From: Candidatus Microgenomatus auricola
GTDB taxonomy: Bacteria > Patescibacteriota > Patescibacteriia > SBBC01
DNA length: 57,777 bases
NCBI GenBank assembly: GCA_005239865.1
Contig: SBBC01000033.1
Location: forward strand, 1 to 57,777
Reading direction: 5' to 3'
A program made the translations under genes and the position numbers. Under the pieces are notes generated by a model. The model was not told the DNA's origin and made no database searches. It saw only the letters and a list, made by a program, of their open reading frames with translations. This document shows positions 38,485 through 43,835 of the stretch, piece after piece (position 1 is the first letter of the stretch; each line of letters starts with the position of its first letter).

Positions 38485-38517
38485 AGTTGTTAGTTGAAAG
38501 TTTTAAGTTAAGGTACG

Positions 38518-39015
38518 ATGCATCAACCACCTCCTGACAACCTTCAACTTCCTCCTAAAGCCATGCCCCGCAGTTACATGATTCCCAAAAAATTCGTGCC
38601 AAAGTCAGATAACGGGTATTTCGAGGTATTATCGAAAACCGTGTTTCAGGTGGGATTCAACTGGCGGGTAGTGGAAAAGAAGTGGCCGGACATCCACAAG
38701 GCGTTTCATGGATTCAGGATCGAGCTAGTCGCCAAGATGGATATTGACGACGTTGACGCACTCTTAAAGAACAAACAGATCATTCGGAATGGTCGAAAAA
38801 TCATGGCTGTTATCGCCAACGCGCAGAAGTTTTTGGAAATTAAAAAAAAGCACGCTGCGGTAAAGAAATTCCTACGGTCACTGCGAAAGAAGCCCTACCG
38901 TGAGCGTCGAAAAATCCTGTCGAAAATGTTCGCGGGTATTGGTCCGACCGGCGTGTTTGTGTTTCTCTATACGGTCGATGAACCAGTGCCGCACTGGCAC
39001 CAACGTAACGATTGA
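38518..39015 (+). CDS. tag: DNA-3-methyladenine glycosylase I-like protein
   Basis: FE.L..FQ.GFNW..V..K, IIRN.RKI.AVI.NA, GPT; true start probably 38563 (MPRSY). Confidence 0.75.
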   Translation: MHQPPPDNLQLPPKAMPRSYMIPKKFVPKSDNGYFEVLSKTVFQVGFNWRVVEKKWPDIHKAFHGFRIELVAKMDIDDVDALLKNKQIIRNGRKIMAVIANAQKFLEIKKKHAAVKKFLRSLRKKPYRERRKILSKMFAGIGPTGVFVFLYTVDEPVPHWHQRND

Positions 39016-39088
39016 CGCGTGACTTTTGACTGCTGACTAATAGGCAGGAGGTTGATTTTTTCTTTATTTTTGTTACAATGCTTGCGTC

Positions 39089-39475
39089 ATGGATCGAGTA
39101 GCAATGAGAAAAATTCAGTACAACAAGTTGATTCGTGACAGGATTCCGCTGGTCATGAAGAAGAACGGCGCGGCGTTCAAGGTCAGAAGGTTGAAGTTAT
39201 CTGCATTCAAGCGTGAACTCTTGAAGAAAGTCGGCGAGGAGGCCAGCAGCCTCCCGCGTCTCAAGAAGAAGGATGACATCACCGATGAGTTGGCTGACAC
39301 GCTCGACGTCATCAAGGAGCTTCAGAGCGTATTCAAGATTTCCAATGCGGATATTCGCAAAGCGCAACAGCAGGCGATGAAAAGGAAGGGCGGATTTCGG
39401 AAGCGGATCTACCTGTACTGGTCGCAGGATACTGGCTACCGGACGAATGAGCGAAGGTATAAAAAACAACAATAG
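39089..39475 (+). CDS. MazG-like NTP pyrophosphohydrolase
   Basis: YNKLIRDRIP, K..EE, DELAD.L.V, KRKGGF. Confidence 0.85.
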   Translation: MDRVAMRKIQYNKLIRDRIPLVMKKNGAAFKVRRLKLSAFKRELLKKVGEEASSLPRLKKKDDITDELADTLDVIKELQSVFKISNADIRKAQQQAMKRKGGFRKRIYLYWSQDTGYRTNERRYKKQQ

Positions 39476-39514
39476 GCGCGCGGGTGTCGTATTACGGCTA
39501 TTATGTCACCCTTC

Positions 39515-39720
39515 TCCCGTAAAACGAGGAGCGTGAGCGACGAAGTTTTACTGATCCCGTACGACGAGCTCTTGTGACAATCCTGGCGCAGGTATCGTAT
39601 AATGGTAATACCTCAGCTTTCCAAGCTGATGCCGGGGGTTCGATTCCCCCTACCTGCTCCAAGATTGTCACGGGATCCTCGCAACCAGACGGGCTCGTTC
39701 GTAGCCTCGTCGTTGCGGGA
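39515..39720. mobile_element. 206-nt nested inverted-repeat element (TCCCG...CGGGA) carrying tRNA-Gly(TCC), inserted in the anticodon of the outer tRNA
   Basis: Concentric arms tcccgtacgacgag 39555-68 / ctcgtcgttgcggga 39706-20 and tcttgtgacaatc 39570-82 / gattgtcacggga 39663-75, plus the self-contained unit tcccgtaaaac...gttttac at 39515-51. Confidence 0.65.
39588..39661 (+). tRNA. tRNA-Gly(TCC), intact, CCA encoded
   Basis: Acceptor GCAGGTA/TACCTGC, anticodon arm TCAGC-TTTCCAA-GCTGA, T-arm GGGGG-TTCGATT-CCCCC. Confidence 0.97.
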
Positions 39721-39779
39721 CAAGGGGTAGAAGCCCCGCCGAATGGCGGGTCACCCGCTCCAGTGAGTTGCCCACCGTG

Positions 39780-41396
39780 ATGAACCAACGCTGGCAGCTC
39801 GTTGGTGTGTTTGCGGTCGTGGTGTTGGTTGCGCTCACGGCGTATTTCTGGAATCTCGGAGTGTCATCGATTGCCAACGCCGACGAGGGCGTGCACGCAC
39901 TGGTCACGCGAGAGCTCCGCGAATCAGGCGACTGGCTGACCTTGCACATCCGCGGGGTCGAGTACTTTCGGAAACCGCCGCTGTCATTCTGGATTCGCGG
40001 CGTCACGCAGTTGGCGCTGGGTGAAAATGAGTTCGCCACCCGGCTGCCGTCGGCGCTGGCCGGCGCGGGGACGACGTTGCTGATCGCGTGGTGGGCCTGG
40101 CTCTGGACGCGGCGCTGGCCGGCGGCGCTCGTCGCTGGGGTCATGTTTCCGCTTTTACCAGTCACGTTCACCCACACCTTTCGCACCGGCGAAACGGACG
40201 GCCTCCTGATATTTTTCCTGACGCTGGCCGCGTGGCTGTTCTGGCGAAGCGTCAAAACACCGTGGCTCGTAGTGCCTGCGGCCGGCGTGATCGGCTTGGC
40301 CTTCATGACGAAATCAGTGGCCGCGGGCGTCGTGCCGATTGGGTTTATGCTGACGTTGTGGCTGCAACGAAAATGGCCATACACTTGGAAGCACGTGGTG
40401 CTGACAGTTGTCCTGTTCCTGGCGGTGATTTTGCCGTGGCACGTTTACGAATATGCGAAGCACGGACAGAAGTTTTGGAACGAGTACGTCGGCTATCATA
40501 TTCTCCAGCGCGTCGAGGAACGGTTGCACGTCACGCCGAAAACCCACGGACCGTTCTGGTACCCGAGCGCGCTCGAACGCGGCATGTTCCCGTGGTCGTG
40601 GTTGGTCGTGCCGGCCTTGGCGCTGGCAATCGTCAGGGTGAGAAAACGCGAGGATGATGCATTCGTCCAGACTTTTCTCTTGGCTTGGGGCGTCGGCACG
40701 GTCGTCCTGTTCTCGCTGGCGGCCACGAAGCTGGCTTGGTACATCGCCCCGGCCTATCCGGCCCTGACCTTGCTCTTGGCGCGATTCCTGACACAACCGT
40801 TCTGGTCGCTGCCGCGCTGGCTGCTTGTGTTGAGCGTCGCGGCGGCAGTCGGTTACCTCATGCGGGTCACTCAACAATTCCAGACCGGTGCCAGCAAGTA
40901 CCTGTCGTTCGACTTCCTGCCCGCCTGGGTGAGCGTCAGCGCGATGGTGGTTGTGGCGGCGGGGGTCCTGACGATGGCCTATCGGAAATCAACGGCCGCG
41001 GGTCAACGGACGCTCAAAGTCATGGCCTTGCTCCTCGTGCTGCACATGGCGCTGGTCAGCGCCGCGCTGTTCTCGCGGAACGTCCGGAGAATCTACGACA
41101 GCCCGTTCCGCGTATTTCGCAACGAGGCCGTGGCGCGCGATCCGAAGGCGAACGTCTACATCTACGACATCGGTTATTATACCAGTCCGCTGGCCCACCT
41201 CTACCTGGTCGGTCCGCGGCAACAGCGGATACTCACGCCGCTGCGGGAACAGCCCGACAAACTGCAAGAAATCTTGGCCAGCCGAGCCGGCGCTTTCGTC
41301 ATTTTTGAGAAGACCAGGGAACATGAGCTAGAGGGACTGGCCGATTTGGAAAAAATCAGTGAATTTGGATCGCTCGCGCTGTACCGAGTTCGATAA
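39780..41396 (+). CDS. ArnT-family (GT83) glycosyltransferase
   Basis: ADEGVHA, KPPL.FW, RLPSA, GLAFMTK, HGPFWY, KLAWYIAPAYPA. Confidence 0.88.
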   Translation: MNQRWQLVGVFAVVVLVALTAYFWNLGVSSIANADEGVHALVTRELRESGDWLTLHIRGVEYFRKPPLSFWIRGVTQLALGENEFATRLPSALAGAGTTLLIAWWAWLWTRRWPAALVAGVMFPLLPVTFTHTFRTGETDGLLIFFLTLAAWLFWRSVKTPWLVVPAAGVIGLAFMTKSVAAGVVPIGFMLTLWLQRKWPYTWKHVVLTVVLFLAVILPWHVYEYAKHGQKFWNEYVGYHILQRVEERLHVTPKTHGPFWYPSALERGMFPWSWLVVPALALAIVRVRKREDDAFVQTFLLAWGVGTVVLFSLAATKLAWYIAPAYPALTLLLARFLTQPFWSLPRWLLVLSVAAAVGYLMRVTQQFQTGASKYLSFDFLPAWVSVSAMVVVAAGVLTMAYRKSTAAGQRTLKVMALLLVLHMALVSAALFSRNVRRIYDSPFRVFRNEAVARDPKANVYIYDIGYYTSPLAHLYLVGPRQQRILTPLREQPDKLQEILASRAGAFVIFEKTREHELEGLADLEKISEFGSLALYRVR

Positions 41397-41444
41397 TTTC
41401 GCCAACTGTATCCAGAATTACATTAACTGCAGAGGCCAAAGGGG

Positions 41445-41473
41445 TTGACAAAACTATCACACCGACGTACCAT
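41445..41473 (+). promoter_or_regulatory. Sigma70 promoter for the 3D-domain gene
   Basis: TTGACA-N17-TACCAT. Confidence 0.7.
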
Positions 41474-41566
41474 ACGTAAAGTTTTCTAAAACCTGCGGGT
41501 CATCCCGCGAGTTTTTGAACCCGGATTTTTCATGCCCAATCCGGCACTTACCAGTAGCGCAACTCC

Positions 41567-42082
41567 ATGATTCGACTACGACGATTTGTCCGACGAAACA
41601 GAAGGAAGTTGTACATTTACATAGCGCTTCTGTCCCTAGCTAATTTTTTAGTCCCGCACCCAGCTTCGGCCAAATCATTGCTGTCAGATGCGGAGACGCC
41701 AGTCGCGGAGGTAGTACCGGAACAGTCAGTGCCGACCATGAGCTGGCGTGAGGATCGACCGCTGTTCCCGGTGCCAGCCAACCTACCGGTGCAACGTACG
41801 GTTTGGGTTACGGCCACCGCCTACACCCCATCAGTTGATGAAACTGACAGCGATCCGCGGACCACGGCTTCCGGTGCAAAAGTAGATGATGGCGTGATCG
41901 CCTTTAACGGCCTATCGTTCGGCACGAAAGTGCGCTTACCCGATCAGTACGGCGATAAAATATTTATCGTCCTCGATCGAATGAGCCCGCGTTACGGTAA
42001 TCGGTACATCGATATCTGGATGCCGACCAAGCAAGAAGCGAAGCAATGGGGCGTGAAGTCGGTCCGGATGGAAATACTTTAA
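41567..42082 (+). CDS. Secreted 3D-domain (MltA-like) protein
   Basis: Signal peptide, VTATAYT...TDSDP..TASG, FGTKV, DRM, IDIWM, AKQWG. Confidence 0.9.
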   Translation: MIRLRRFVRRNRRKLYIYIALLSLANFLVPHPASAKSLLSDAETPVAEVVPEQSVPTMSWREDRPLFPVPANLPVQRTVWVTATAYTPSVDETDSDPRTTASGAKVDDGVIAFNGLSFGTKVRLPDQYGDKIFIVLDRMSPRYGNRYIDIWMPTKQEAKQWGVKSVRMEIL

Positions 42083-42106
42083 CATCCTTACCAAGGATTA
42101 CCGACC

Positions 42107-42135
42107 TTGATCGTGTCGGAGATTTTTGGTATGAT
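42107..42135 (+). promoter_or_regulatory. Sigma70 promoter upstream of tRNA-Cys
   Basis: TTGATC-N17-TATGAT with TG extension. Confidence 0.6.
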
Positions 42136-42161
42136 GGCGGGGCTTCATCACCGAGTCAATC

Positions 42162-42236
42162 GGCCTGGTAGCCAAGTGGTAAGGCAAGGGTCTGCAAAAC
42201 CCTTATTCAGGGGTTCGAATCCCCTCCAGGCCTCCA
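42162..42236 (+). tRNA. tRNA-Cys(GCA), CCA encoded
   Basis: Acceptor GGCCTGG/CCAGGCC, anticodon arm AGGGT-CTGCAAA-ACCCT, T-arm AGGGG-TTCGAAT-CCCCT. Confidence 0.97.
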
Positions 42237-42251
42237 ACAGAAATGAGCGGC

Positions 42252-42284
42252 CTGGTGCGGGGCGAATTCCCCTCGTGGCCTCCA
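42252..42284 (+). pseudogene. Relic: element right arm plus the 3' end of a second tRNA-Cys
   Basis: CTGGTGCGGGG followed by CGAATTCCCCTCGTGGCCTCCA (half T-loop, T-stem, a different acceptor 3' strand, U discriminator, CCA). Confidence 0.55.
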
Positions 42285-42288
42285 TCGC

Positions 42289-42647
<359 letters not shown>

Positions 42648-42650
42648 CCG

Positions 42651-42792
42651 TCCCGCACCACTTGCCAAATAATTGTGATTTCTGCGCGAGAGTAGTTCAG
42701 TGGTAGAACGCTTCCTTGCCAAGGAAGAGGTCGGGGGTTCGAGTCCCCTCTCTCGCTCCAAGTAAAGTAATTTCTACTCAAGTGGTGCGGGA
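42651..42792. mobile_element. Inverted-repeat element carrying tRNA-Gly(GCC), in place of the T-arm of the outer tRNA
   Basis: Perfect 14-bp IR TCCCGCACCACTTG (42651-64) / CAAGTGGTGCGGGA (42779-92). Confidence 0.75.
42686..42760 (+). tRNA. tRNA-Gly(GCC), intact, CCA encoded
   Basis: Acceptor GCGAGAG/CTCTCGC, anticodon arm CTTCC-TTGCCAA-GGAAG, T-loop TTCGAGT. Confidence 0.97.
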
Positions 42793-42810
42793 TCACCCGC
42801 TCCAGGACTT

Positions 42811-42843
42811 TTCCGTAACATATTGAATGGTACGGGATCACCC
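42811..42843. repeat. Degenerate empty copy of the TCCCG...CGGGA palindrome
   Basis: TTCCGTAACAT-attga-ATGGTACGGGA followed by TCACCC, repeating the CGGGATCACCC junction at 42788-98. Confidence 0.55.
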
Positions 42844-42920
42844 ACTTTTGGGATATGGAAACCCCGATGAACATCCTGTCCATCTGGGCACTACATGGGC
42901 TGGTGAAGATGGCGGTGCTC

Positions 42921-43835
42921 CTACATCCAGTCGGGCACCGGTTCCCCGCACTTCGCACAGCATCGTGAGCGAAGCACGGGAACGTTGCCGTCTGGGGGTA
43001 GGTATCTAGAGGGAATGAACTCTGTGCTCCCGCATCGAGGACAAGCATGCATTCCGGAGTCGCTGGGAGGAGTATGTTCTTCCGCACGAGTGCGGCCGCT
43101 GCTTTCAACGTCGGGATCGGTTTTCGTTGCTTGCTCCGTTCCACTGGAACCACTTAACTCCACGATGATGAAGACAGTATCGAAACCGAGAACGAGCTTG
43201 TTATTCGGGTTGAAGTGGATGTCGAATTCCCACGTGGAGAGCGAGAGCATTCGGCGCCCATCCAAGATTACCGAATGCCAACAGGTCGGATCGTCGTACT
43301 CCTGCTTCATCACTCCAGTTACCGGATGTTCGTTCGACCGTCCGGTGCCAATGACGAACGCAACGTGAGCACAATCCGGAGAGAAGATTGGACCATCGCC
43401 AACGTCACTGAACGGTCCCAAGGGTTGTTGATCAACGTAGACAAACCATGGACCCGGCGATTCCCGCACAGTGATCGTGTCGTACTCGTCGTCCCCCTCG
43501 ATGGTCCTAAGCGGTGGCGCAGCCTTCGGGCTCCACGCCGCGTAGGCGATGTGACGTGAATCAGGTGAGAATGTTGCGCGCTCGATGTGGCAAGCCCAGT
43601 TTTCCAACACCTTGTCAACGAACATTGCCTCCATGTAATACACTTGCCCACCAGAGATTTCCAAGTTGACATCGAACCGTGCGATATCGATGGTCCGCAT
43701 TCCGTCCGGGGACTTGATTGTTTCGAGCAGAGACACTACCGTGCCCGGAAGGTTTCCTGAATGATCTTTGAAATAATCCCTCGCTTGAGGTCCGAATAAC
43801 ACCTCTTTTCGTATCGGTCGGTTACCACGCATCAC
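42921..43835 (-). CDS. Hypothetical protein with TolB/WD40-like repeats and a C-terminal Zn ribbon
   Basis: FSPDSRHIAY and FSPDCAHVAF repeats; CPRC...CAKC; AAGGAG RBS upstream. Confidence 0.65.
   Translation of the reverse strand: MMRGNRPIRKEVLFGPQARDYFKDHSGNLPGTVVSLLETIKSPDGMRTIDIARFDVNLEISGGQVYYMEAMFVDKVLENWACHIERATFSPDSRHIAYAAWSPKAAPPLRTIEGDDEYDTITVRESPGPWFVYVDQQPLGPFSDVGDGPIFSPDCAHVAFVIGTGRSNEHPVTGVMKQEYDDPTCWHSVILDGRRMLSLSTWEFDIHFNPNNKLVLGFDTVFIIVELSGSSGTEQATKTDPDVESSGRTRAEEHTPPSDSGMHACPRCGSTEFIPSRYLPPDGNVPVLRSRCCAKCGEPVPDWM

What the first reader, a model, noticed from the sequence alone, without database searches (positions are those of the whole stretch)
39480..39762. tRNA-Gly(TCC) locus records several successive insertions: concentric IR layers in the anticodon and an empty hairpin in the T-arm
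The insert splits the anticodon TC|C. It contains three TCCCG-type units: a self-contained one (39515-51, loop GAGGAGCGTGAGCGACGAA), a middle pair (39555-68/39706-20) and an inner pair hugging the tRNA (39570-82/39663-75, fully paired with two G-U). The inner arm extends (CCTGG versus CCAAG) to pair with the CCA end of the inner tRNA. The outer T-arm is separately replaced by CCCGCC-GAAT-GGCGGG (39735-50), the same position and end motif as at the GCC locus. Inference: repeated targeting of the site, with 'empty' and 'tRNA-loaded' forms of one element family.
Basis: partly seen in the sequence, partly recalled or inferred. Interest (0 to 1): 0.8.

Follow-up and report, generated by a model that had tools for sequence, protein, structure and literature searches.

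The report
tRNA gene nested inside its own tRNA gene
A working glycine tRNA gene sits on a small hairpin-ended insert that splits the anticodon of an older, now dead copy of the same tRNA gene, and the same nesting, up to three layers deep, recurs across this tiny groundwater bacterium and its relatives.

Summary
An intact tRNA-Gly(UCC) gene (39588-39661) lies on a 206-bp non-coding insert (39515-39720). The insert splits an older tRNA-Gly(UCC) gene (39480-39514 and 39721-39762) between anticodon nucleotides 35 and 36.

The same junction (TTC|TCCCG ... CGGGA|CAAG) recurs in 10 insert layers at 7 of 9 related loci, one to three layers deep. Another sample holds an uninterrupted copy of the outer gene type. 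Other contigs show the inner gene type itself split at 35|36.

In this 1.0-Mb genome at least 17 of 40 tRNA genes are flanked by fragments of the same tRNA. Nine of 39 are enclosed by perfect leader-trailer stems of 9 bp or more.

Best reading (0.6): a DNA-level, hairpin-ended cassette carries a replacement tRNA and disables the resident cognate gene, which then decays. New rounds hit the working copy. The enzyme is unknown; candidates are two RAYT-like HUH transposases and a Xer/integron-type recombinase.

RNA splicing is unlikely. No EndA was found, RtcB is in 1 of 41 genomes, and the outer gene here is broken.

No known family passed its membership test, and six literature searches found no description.

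The parts
39480..39514 (+). 5' half of the outer (resident, now dead) tRNA-Gly(UCC) gene, from acceptor strand GCGGGTG to anticodon-loop CTTC, ending at nucleotide 35.
   Evidence: Read. A contig in another sample (X21) matches 39480-39514 with 3 differences and runs straight on into CAAGG, an uninterrupted allele (tables 7 and 8). ARAGORN finds no tRNA after in-silico removal of the insert.
39515..39554 (+). 5' accessory unit of the insert (TCCCGTAAAAC ... GTTTTACTGA). It is the positional counterpart of the TCCCGC-AT-rich-CTGGCGRGA unit that precedes the cassette in 10 of the 11 other left parts listed.
   Evidence: Weak hairpin: DNA fold -3.8 kcal/mol, z -0.4. Positional homology.
39555..39587 (+). 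Left arm of the tRNA cassette: terminal inverted repeat TCCCGTACGACGAG (39555-68) and leader stem TCTTGTGACAATCCTGG (39570-86).
   Evidence: Pairings read. Inverted repeat I1. The same left-arm start (TCCCGCACGACG) is present in L233 and L271.
39588..39661 (+). Inner, intact tRNA-Gly(UCC) gene with encoded CCA (acceptor GCAGGTA/TACCTGC). This is the working copy.
   Evidence: ARAGORN. Rfam tRNA 65.7 bits, E 3.8e-13. 98% identical over 92 nt, short flanks included, to the inner copy in G014, a genome of another family.
39662..39675 (+). Right arm and trailer stem AGATTGTCACGGGA, which pairs with 39570-82.
   Evidence: The cassette fold shows the stem coaxial with the acceptor stem (item 2, z -5.3).
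39676..39720 (+). Conserved 3' hairpin module of the cassette (TCCTCGCAAC ... GTTGCGGGA). Its last 15 nt (39706-20) are also the right terminal inverted repeat.
   Evidence: DNA fold -13.4 kcal/mol, z -3.8. Homologues lie at the same place in G014 (two layers), G016, L233 and L271. 93% of cells paired; 4 pairs with changes on both sides; 0 of 500 shuffles reach the covariation score.
39721..39762 (+). 3' half of the outer tRNA-Gly(UCC) gene: CAA, decayed anticodon-stem strand, hairpin CCCGCC-GAAT-GGCGGG (39735-50) in place of the T arm, acceptor strand CACCCGC, and TCCA.
   Evidence: Hairpin fold z -3.7. The identical 16-mer occurs at G000 C12:810 and C13:3000.
42603..42805 (+). Sister locus. 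An outer tRNA-Gly(GCC) (42603-42650 and 42793-42805) has its T arm replaced by a cassette, TCCCGCACCACTTG ... CAAGTGGTGCGGGA (42651-42792), which carries the intact tRNA-Gly(GCC) at 42686-42760.
   Evidence: outer part 43.7 bits; z -6.1. Nested homologues with related arms are shown in G010, G014 and G020; in G005 a 75% match spans 204 nt of the nest.

Best explanation
SHOWN
- A 206-bp non-coding insert (39515-39720) interrupts the resident tRNA-Gly(UCC) gene between anticodon nucleotides 35 and 36.
- The insert carries a complete tRNA-Gly(UCC) gene of a different lineage: acceptor GCAGGTA against GCGGGTG in the resident gene.
- The resident gene is no longer a tRNA gene. Its anticodon stem is mispaired relative to the uninterrupted allele, and a 16-nt hairpin stands in place of its T arm.

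INFERRED
- The insertion happened in DNA. It switched off the resident gene, and the cargo tRNA took over decoding. The resident gene became a neutral shell that decays and is eroded by deletions.
- The inner tRNA is transcribed from the old promoter inside a hairpin-rich precursor and is released by RNase P and 3' processing. Its leader-trailer stem and the 3' hairpin module are kept by compensatory change.
- The cassette, or a relative of it, can later hit the anticodon loop of whichever copy is then working. This gives the Russian-doll stacks seen in relatives.
- Only hits in the cognate gene survive, because only there does the cargo make good the damage in a genome with single-copy tRNA genes.

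SPECULATIVE
- The insert has no target duplication, its two ends pair with each other, and insertion points lie in loops of the folded gene. This suggests an enzyme that acts on folded single-stranded DNA.
- Candidates encoded in the genome are two RAYT-like HUH (Y1) transposases and one Xer/integron-integrase-like tyrosine recombinase. None is linked to the insert by any test here.
For: Junction and layering:
- The junction is constant. TTC|TCC on the left and GGGA|CAAG on the right occur in 10 layers at 7 of 9 loci examined; inserts are 190-252 bp (sequences).
- Layering is one or two deep by script. A third shell is visible by eye in G014, L233, L242 and L271.

Empty and filled sites:
- A 263-nt contig in run X21 carries the outer 5' half (3 differences) followed directly by CAAGG.
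- Two contigs in run X15 carry the inner-type tRNA split after 39621 (nucleotide 35) by TCCCGC.

Shell decay:
- After in-silico removal of the insert, ARAGORN recovers a tRNA-Gly in 2 of 10 layers, and not in the window.

Two tRNA lineages swap roles:
- The GCAGGTA type is inner in G000, G014 and G018. The same type is the outer shell in G016, where a GCGGGTA type is inner.
- The inner copy plus short flanks is 98% identical between two families.

Genome-wide pattern:
- 17 of 40 tRNA genes have a fragment of the same tRNA within 450 nt (BLAST E <= 1e-3; neighbouring annotated tRNAs left out).
- Perfect leader-trailer stems of 9 bp or more enclose 9 of 39 tRNA genes, against 67 of 3000 random windows.
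- 11 of 23 CCCGCAC/GTGCGGG pairs lie within 400 nt of a tRNA gene. By my arithmetic those windows are about 3.5% of the genome.

Conserved module:
- The 3' hairpin shows compensatory changes.

Splicing machinery:
- PF01974 (EndA) gave no match.
- RtcB is found in 1 of 41 genomes, although nested loci occur in four genomes without it.
- No group I intron match in 38500-43500 at E <= 1.
Against: - The long arms of the window's units have no other copy in this genome. This is unlike ordinary transposable elements.
- No copy with a gene for its own enzyme was found among the 5 genome loci and 6 true metagenome hits read.
- The RAYT link is loose. Close homologues are in 7 of 41 genomes, including all 5 with a nested Gly(UCC) locus. 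But short CCCGCAC hairpins occur in 18 of the 20 other genomes of the order, including G008 and G010, where the RAYT query found nothing.
- The RAYT genes are not flanked by such hairpins.
- The GCC nest has homologous arms in three families of the order. This fits old vertical inheritance and a host-level role for the stems.
- Hairpins with the same end motif lie inside the RNase P RNA gene and directly before the tmRNA gene. This points to an RNA-level role.
- Two of 10 outer shells would still be intact tRNAs after removal of the insert, so splicing cannot be excluded for those.
- No RNA data are available.
Confidence: 0.6

Rival explanations
1. RNA-level intron. The 206-nt insert is removed from the outer pre-tRNA by a protein endonuclease and a ligase. 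This releases the inner tRNA and rebuilds a working outer tRNA, so both copies function.
For: - Insert ends always pair at the exon junction.
- Inserts sit in loops (anticodon, T, D), as archaeal introns do.
- Exon sequences of some shells are well kept: 2 of 10 are intact after removal.
- Read by hand: UUUC (32-35) can pair with the insert's last GGGA, leaving 3-nt bulges UCC and CAA. That is a bulge-helix-bulge-like shape.
- G000 encodes RtcB.
- The 3' hairpin covaries.
Against: - The window's outer gene cannot give a tRNA. Its T arm is a tetraloop hairpin.
- No EndA was found.
- RtcB is in 1 of 41 genomes, while G003, G014, G016 and G018 have nests without it.
- Cleavage at the canonical positions in the bulges (recalled, not tested) would leave UCU plus C37 instead of UCC plus A37.
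- The stable pairing is UCCC/GGGA, not the bulged form.
- RNase P and RNase Z products lack the ends that RtcB needs (recalled).
Confidence: 0.12
2. No mobile element. Nests arose from old local duplications and deletions. The hairpins are host elements for processing or stabilising stable RNAs, kept by selection, and the shells are relics that erode up to the edge of the selected stems.
For: - The arms are unique in the genome.
- The GCC nest, with homologous arms, is present in three families, and the shell is cut back to different points in each.
- The same hairpin motif occurs in the RNase P RNA gene and beside the tmRNA gene.
- Stems are kept by compensatory change.
- Hairpins are common across the order whether or not the RAYT query finds a match.
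Against: - Duplication and deletion do not explain complementary arms or a junction that falls at 35|36 in 10 layers.
- The inner and outer lineages swap between genomes.
- There is an uninterrupted outer-type allele, and a split inner-type allele, in other samples.
- The 5' unit, the cassette and, in most layers, the 3' hairpin recur as a set layer after layer.
Confidence: 0.2
3. Assembly artefact. Two organisms were joined through the conserved tRNA sequence.
For: No single Logan contig of the likely source runs spans the locus. Two contigs overlap only at 39603-39632, inside the tRNA, where depth rises because other organisms share it.
Against: - The arms (39570-86 with 39659-75; 39555-68 with 39706-20) and the outer acceptor strands are complementary across the join.
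- Depths are alike on both sides: 29.7 and 24.6.
- The same nested architecture stands in four other genomes and four distinct metagenome sequences (six contigs).
Confidence: 0.03

Closest known systems
Integrative elements (phages, islands) that target tRNA genes with tyrosine integrases
   Same: They cross over in the anticodon or T loop of a tRNA gene and bring tRNA sequence with them, so that a working gene remains (recalled: Williams 2002). Displaced 3' tRNA ends 100-150 nt downstream, as such elements leave, are seen at other tRNA genes here and in relatives.
   Different: The focal insert is 206 bp and has no integrase. It brings a whole tRNA gene, not a 3' part. It splits the target without the direct repeat of a crossover core. 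Its ends are inverted, and it nests inside itself.
Enzyme-spliced, apparently mobile tRNA introns of Archaea (Thermoproteales; Asgard preprint seen only as a listing)
   Same: Short inserts with paired ends lie in loops of tRNA genes, several per gene, and are gained repeatedly.
   Different: This is a bacterium: it has bacterial RNase P RNA and tmRNA. No EndA was found. The shells decay, the position is 35|36 rather than 37/38, and the insert carries a tRNA gene.
REP/REPIN elements moved by RAYT (HUH Y1) transposases
   Same: They are non-coding palindromic units with short conserved ends, no target duplication, and a whole-element hairpin. Two RAYT-like genes are present (NF047646, 70.6 and 60.9 bits).
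   Different: REPINs are many near-identical extragenic copies, and RAYT genes are flanked by them (abstracts). Here the arms are unique and the RAYT genes have no such flanks. The targets are tRNA genes and the cargo is a tRNA.
Group I introns in bacterial tRNA anticodon loops
   Same: An insert of about 200 nt in the anticodon loop of a bacterial tRNA gene. A 2014 review calls group I and II introns the only significant structural exception among bacterial tRNA genes (passages of PMC4033280).
   Different: No group I core was found by Rfam at E <= 1. The insert is built of a tRNA plus hairpins, and the host gene is dead.
Split tRNA genes of Nanoarchaeum (recalled)
   Same: tRNA halves are flanked by unique GC-rich complementary stretches that would bring the halves together.
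   Different: There the halves are trans-spliced into the only copy of that tRNA. Here a complete copy sits between the halves, and the halves decay.

Membership tests
Group I intron in a bacterial tRNA gene | Conserved catalytic core recognised by the Rfam group I model | tested here: not met
   cmscan of 38500-43500 at E <= 1 lists only tRNA and two chance hits.
Enzyme-spliced (bulge-helix-bulge) tRNA intron | Splicing endonuclease (EndA) encoded in the genome | tested here: not met
   PF01974: 0 matches in G000 (99% complete). The control rang in 4 archaea.
Enzyme-spliced (bulge-helix-bulge) tRNA intron | Bulge-helix-bulge at the exon-intron junctions that yields the right mature loop | tested here: inconclusive
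   Read by hand. A 4-bp helix UUUC/GGGA with 3-nt bulges can be drawn. Cleavage at the positions I recall as canonical would give the wrong anticodon, and UCCC/GGGA pairing competes.
Enzyme-spliced (bulge-helix-bulge) tRNA intron | Exons join into a functional tRNA | tested here: not met
   No tRNA is found in the window after in-silico removal of the insert. Over all layers, 2 of 10 are recovered.
Enzyme-spliced (bulge-helix-bulge) tRNA intron | RNA ligase (RtcB) present wherever such introns are | tested here: not met
   RtcB is in G000 only, 1 of 41 genomes. The nested loci in G003, G014, G016 and G018 lack it.
REP/REPIN with RAYT | RAYT (Y1 HUH) gene in the genome | tested here: met
   Two ORFs, at C25:4972-5553 and C36:7064-7729. 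PF01797 scores 32 and 25.9 bits (cut-off 23). NF047646 scores 70.6 and 60.9 bits, below its cut-off of 80.
REP/REPIN with RAYT | Many near-identical copies dispersed through the genome | tested here: not met
   BLAST of each unit against the genome finds no second copy of any arm. Only the 16-mer hairpin recurs, three times in all.
REP/REPIN with RAYT | RAYT gene flanked by its own REPs | tested here: not met
   No TCCCG...CGGGA hairpin lies within 400-500 nt of either gene. None was found within about 1.5 kb in 6 loci, apart from one unrelated MITE-like copy in L138.
MITE of a cut-and-paste (DDE) transposon | Terminal inverted repeats | tested here: met
   39555-68 pairs with 39706-20: 14 pairs with one bulge. 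Similar ends occur in L233 and L271.
MITE of a cut-and-paste (DDE) transposon | Target-site duplication | tested here: not met
   TTC|insert|CAA rebuilds the loop TTCCAA with nothing duplicated. The uninterrupted allele reads ...CTTC CAAGG....
tRNA-targeting integrative element (tyrosine integrase) | Direct repeat of the tRNA 3' part at both ends, with an integrase inside or beside the element | tested here: not met
   There is no direct repeat at the focal locus. The only PF00589 matches in the genome are at C38:7356-7829 and C58:1-132, not in the window.
Integron cassette with attC | Imperfect hairpin with bulged bases at the 3' end of the cassette | tested here: met
   39676-39720 has bulged T39679 and T39707 and an unpaired CA. 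Covariation supports the fold. This is a resemblance in form only.
Integron cassette with attC | Conserved core sites (recalled as RYYYAAC / GTTRRRY) and an array beside an intI gene and attI | tested here: not met
   The ends read TCCYCG / CGGGA. Cassettes lie inside tRNA genes, not in an array. The Xer/integron-like recombinase (NF040815, 225 bits) is on another contig.

The most novel reading that the evidence does not exclude
These are self-replacing tRNA cassettes, a previously undescribed class of bacterial mobile element. A cassette has no gene of its own except a tRNA. It recognises the folded shape of its cognate tRNA gene and inserts in the anticodon loop between nucleotides 35 and 36. 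It survives because its cargo replaces the gene it destroys. In effect this is a gene drive on single-copy tRNA genes. It leaves a dated stack of dead shells and spreads between families of ultra-small groundwater bacteria.
Probability: 0.4. Interest if true: 0.92.

Novelty: categorically new. Interest (0 to 1): 0.86.

Why it matters
A 2014 review describes bacterial tRNA genes as uniform, with group I and II introns as the only significant structural exception (passages of PMC4033280). Here a streamlined 1.0-Mb bacterium keeps fragments of the same tRNA beside at least 17 of its 40 tRNA genes, and relatives stack up to three copies of one tRNA gene inside each other.

If the cassette reading holds, several things follow:
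- It is a new way for selfish DNA to persist: it replaces an essential gene instead of avoiding it.
- It is a route for horizontal replacement of tRNA genes.
- It is a natural layered record of successive invasions.
- It points to an unknown activity that places DNA precisely into the loops of folded tRNA genes. That could be tested with the candidate enzymes.

There is also a practical consequence. tRNA finders report only the innermost gene, and the shells can be mis-called as pseudogenes, introns or assembly errors in such genomes.

Tried and rejected
- RNA evidence: no RNA holder was listed among 21 runs, so expression and splicing could not be examined.
- Read laying: contigs only; no joints, no indels.
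Of the loci checked, 3 passed a loose upstream filter, and all 3 were false on reading.
- 17-mer junction scan of metagenome contigs: 6 of 118 hits are real tRNA-Gly junctions. Three of the six are the same sequence.
- Search for the outer-type gene in the order, 28-mer with up to 3 mismatches: found in 0 of 20 other genomes.
- Viral contigs: 0 of 45 matches to the start of the 3' hairpin carry the whole hairpin. No sign of carriage by phages.
- Promoter scan: the one sigma-70-like hit (39574-39603) ends in the tRNA's own D loop and was set aside.
- My first reading of 'three tandem units, not concentric' was dropped in part. The left arm start and the end of the 3' hairpin form a terminal inverted repeat that is also present in L233 and L271.
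- The dispersed 77-81-nt family TCCCGTTAGAG... was considered part of the system and then set apart. It has 3-4-bp target duplications.
- RtcB as the splicing ligase was rejected on its distribution.
- Six literature searches found no paper on nested bacterial tRNA genes. Supplementary files could not be seen.

Full report
1. WHAT IS THERE

The window is contig C50 of a 1,002,208-bp, 58-contig genome with 57% G+C, rated 99% complete. The genome has a bacterial RNase P RNA and a tmRNA, and its DNA is held by groundwater metagenome runs. It is therefore an ultra-small bacterium. I infer a member of the candidate phyla radiation; no name was available.

ARAGORN and Rfam find one intact tRNA-Gly(UCC) gene at 39588-39661, with an encoded CCA. 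Around it lie the two halves of a second tRNA-Gly(UCC)-like gene:
- 39480-39514: acceptor GCGGGTG, D arm, and anticodon arm up to CTTC.
- 39721-39762: CAA, the rest of the anticodon arm, a hairpin in place of the T arm, CACCCGC, and TCCA.

The 206 bp between the halves start with TCCCG and end with CGGGA. They split the anticodon between nucleotides 35 and 36.

- 39570-82 with 39663-75: 13 pairs, two of them G-T. The stem runs on as TGG/CCA, with one C-A mismatch.
- 39555-68 with 39706-20: 14 pairs, with one bulge.
- CCCGCC-GAAT-GGCGGG at 39735-50.

The 285-nt locus folds far better than shuffles (z -7.1, 0 of 200). So does the GCC locus (z -4.6).

2. ANATOMY, CORRECTED

The insert has three parts.
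(i) 39515-39554 is a weak hairpin (z -0.4).
(ii) 39555-39675 holds the tRNA between a leader and a trailer that pair with each other (z -5.3).
(iii) 39676-39720 is a 45-nt hairpin (z -3.8).

Part (iii) is conserved at the same place in G014 (two layers), G016 and two metagenome contigs. Across six sequences it keeps 93% of cells paired, has four pairs changed on both sides, and exceeds all 500 shuffles in covariation score.

The end of part (iii) is also an inverted copy of the start of part (ii). L233 and L271 share this terminal inverted repeat. However, the right end has an alternative self-fold, and that is the fold supported by evolution.

3. ALLELES ELSEWHERE

Among 41 related genomes searched with the locus, four others carry a nested tRNA-Gly(UCC) with the same junction: G003, G014, G016 and G018. 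Some carry a plain gene (G005, G024). Others carry a gene followed 100-150 nt downstream by a second copy of its 3' end.

A 17-mer across the left junction found six true cases among 118 metagenome hits.

I peeled inserts in silico at TTC|TCC and GGGA|CAAG. This gave 10 layers in 7 of 9 loci, with inserts of 190-252 bp. A tRNA-Gly is recovered after removal in only 2 of the 10, and not in the window. By eye, G014, L233, L242 and L271 show one more, more decayed, outer shell.

Most layers bring the same set: a 5' unit TCCCGC-AT-rich-CTGGCGRGA, then the tRNA with its arms, and usually the 3' hairpin. A second arm type, TCCCGCCGCGAC ... GTCGCGGCGGGA, lacks the 3' hairpin. It sits inside different shells in G014 and in L242.

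The lineages swap roles. The GCAGGTA-type tRNA is the inner copy in G000, G014 and G018 but is the shell in G016. The inner copy with its short flanks is 98% identical between G000 and G014, which belong to different families.

Contigs of other samples add two alleles:
- In X21, the outer 5' half (3 differences in 35 nt) runs straight on into CAAGG. This is an uninterrupted gene of the outer type.
- In X15, two contigs match the inner tRNA up to 39621 (nucleotide 35) and then continue with TCCCGC. Here the inner type is itself split.

4. THE WHOLE GENOME

Of 40 tRNA genes, 17 have a fragment of the same tRNA within 450 nt (BLAST E <= 1e-3; hits on neighbouring annotated tRNAs were left out). 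The focal locus is too diverged to be counted in that figure.

Examples read:
- tRNA-Thr(UGU) sits in a shell that looks intact by eye, again split at 35|36.
- tRNA-Phe sits in the T loop of a shell identical to it over 44 and 16 nt.
- The shells of tRNA-Gln and tRNA-Lys carry several hairpins.

Perfect leader-trailer stems of 9 bp or more enclose 9 of 39 tRNA genes, against 67 of 3000 random windows. For 12 bp or more the figures are 3 of 39 against 2 of 3000.

Pairs of CCCGCAC and GTGCGGG within 350 nt number 23. Eleven lie within 400 nt of a tRNA gene, windows that by my arithmetic make up about 3.5% of the genome. Four enclose an intact tRNA. Others lie in the RNase P RNA gene and directly before the tmRNA gene.

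Short hairpins of this kind occur in 18 of the 20 other genomes of the order, up to 21 per genome, with reversed-pattern controls of 0-2. They are rare in the rest of the class.

The exact 16-mer of the T-arm hairpin occurs at two more places in the genome. The long arms of the focal units occur nowhere else in it.

The sister GCC locus is nested too. It has relatives with homologous arms in three families, with the shell cut back to different points in each.

5. HOW IT MOST LIKELY WORKS

Shown:
- The resident gene is split at a fixed position by a non-coding insert that carries a complete cognate tRNA gene.
- Shells decay.
- Layers stack.
- Empty and filled versions exist.

Inferred:
- Insertion happened in DNA.
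- The cargo replaces the function of the gene it disrupts.
- Only cognate hits survive in a genome of single-copy tRNA genes.
- The next hit lands in the copy that is then working.
- Shells erode by deletion up to the stems that still matter for the inner tRNA.

The insert causes no target duplication, its ends pair with each other, and insertion points lie in loops. These features fit an enzyme that works on folded single strands.

The genome encodes two RAYT-like HUH transposases and one Xer/integron-integrase-like recombinase next to tRNA-Met. Close RAYT homologues occur in 7 of 41 genomes, including all five with nested Gly(UCC) loci. These genomes are related to one another, however, and the short hairpins also occur where the RAYT query found nothing. 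The enzyme therefore remains unassigned.

6. RIVALS

Splicing at the RNA level is disfavoured:
- No EndA was found.
- RtcB is in 1 of 41 genomes.
- No group I core was found.
- The shell here is dead.
A bulge-helix-bulge-like drawing is possible by hand. Cut at the positions I recall as canonical, it would give the wrong anticodon.

A purely host-level origin (old duplications plus selected processing stems) explains several facts: the unique arms, the ancient GCC nest, and the hairpins in RNase P RNA. It does not explain the fixed 35|36 junction, the swapped lineages, or the empty and filled alleles.

An assembly chimera is unlikely, given complementarity across the join, similar depths on both sides, and the same architecture in independent assemblies.

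7. COMPARISON AND NOVELTY

Each known family that I considered fails at least one defining feature that I could test: group I intron, enzyme-spliced intron, REPIN with RAYT, DDE-type MITE, tRNA-targeting integrative element, and integron cassette. The membership table gives the details.

Six full-text searches found nothing on nested bacterial tRNA genes. A 2014 review states that bacterial tRNA genes are uniform apart from group I and II introns (passages). Supplements were not available, and most subscription-journal papers are outside the library, so prior description cannot be excluded.

8. LIMITS

- There are no RNA data.
- The reads tool offered only contigs.
- The covariation test rests on six related sequences.
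- Co-occurrence counts are not phylogenetically independent.

Noticed in passing
window 42249-42284: Twelve nt after tRNA-Cys (42162-42236) lies a 36-nt 'minihelix'. It has the same acceptor strands (GGCCTGG ... GGCCTCCA) around a GGGG-CGAATT-CCCC hairpin, as if the D and anticodon arms had been deleted from a second tRNA-Cys copy.
   Followed up: partly
window 42806-42850: After the outer end of the GCC locus comes a further hairpin, TTCCGTAAC ... GGTACGGGA (z -4.8). It is followed by TCACCCAC, a second decayed copy of the outer acceptor strand. This suggests one more, older layer.
   Followed up: partly
G000 C2:12120, C4:49314, C5:11266, C16:14691, C24:17002, C25:8268, C26:4824, C36:3051-3209, C38:4646, C47:19477-19633, C53:3870, C57:85829: A dispersed family of 77-81 nt with 14-nt inverted ends TCCCGTTAGAGAG and unrelated interiors. 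It is flanked by 3-4-bp direct repeats (TGA, TCA, TAA, TTGA). Two copies are nested in others. It looks like a separate cut-and-paste-type MITE that shares only the first five letters with the tRNA inserts.
   Followed up: partly
G000 C46:17940-18403 (L147): The RNase P RNA gene is long: 464 nt against a 367-position model. It holds two CCCGCACC ... GGTGCGGG hairpins. One lies in the linker before the 3' end, where the model has no helix.
   Followed up: partly
G000 C28:7317-7345: A CCCGCACC-loop-GGTGCGGG hairpin abuts the 5' end of the tmRNA gene (C28:6914-7316, minus strand).
   Followed up: no
G000 C44:9415-10710: RtcB RNA ligase (576 bits) is present in this genome but was found in none of the 40 relatives searched. 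It is probably a recent acquisition. Its neighbours were not examined.
   Followed up: partly
G000 C42:1-74 (L153, minus strand): A 'microhelix' stands alone near a contig end. It consists of the outer-type acceptor strand GCGGGTG, six letters, the inner-type acceptor strand TACCTGC, and TCCA. It looks like a deletion relic of a nested tRNA-Gly(UCC) locus.
   Followed up: partly
G000 C38:6886-7000; L010 and L011 downstream of tRNA-Gly: An element of about 100 nt (GACTTCGC ... TTCGTCTGGCGAGCC ... GACGAAG ... AGTCGGA) follows tRNA-Met in G000 and tRNA-Gly(UCC) in G002 and G006. In each case a repeat of the tRNA's 3' end comes after it. It looks like a miniature integrative element that uses different tRNA genes.
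   Followed up: no
G000 C38:7320-8141 and C58:1-132: The only two tyrosine-recombinase matches in the genome lie beside tRNA loci that carry remnants: tRNA-Met on C38 and the nested tRNA-Arg(UCU) on C58. The complete one scores as XerA/integron-integrase type (NF040815, 225 bits).
   Followed up: partly
L137-L141 (RAYT-like genes of G014, G003, G004, G016): Perfect 10-14-bp hairpins lie inside the coding sequence of the RAYT-like genes, in the variable middle part that also differs between the two G000 paralogues. This looks like palindromic insertions read through as protein.
   Followed up: no
G000 C58:501-571: Rfam scores a tRNA (47 bits) that ARAGORN does not call, 130 nt after tRNA-Arg(UCU).
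   Followed up: no
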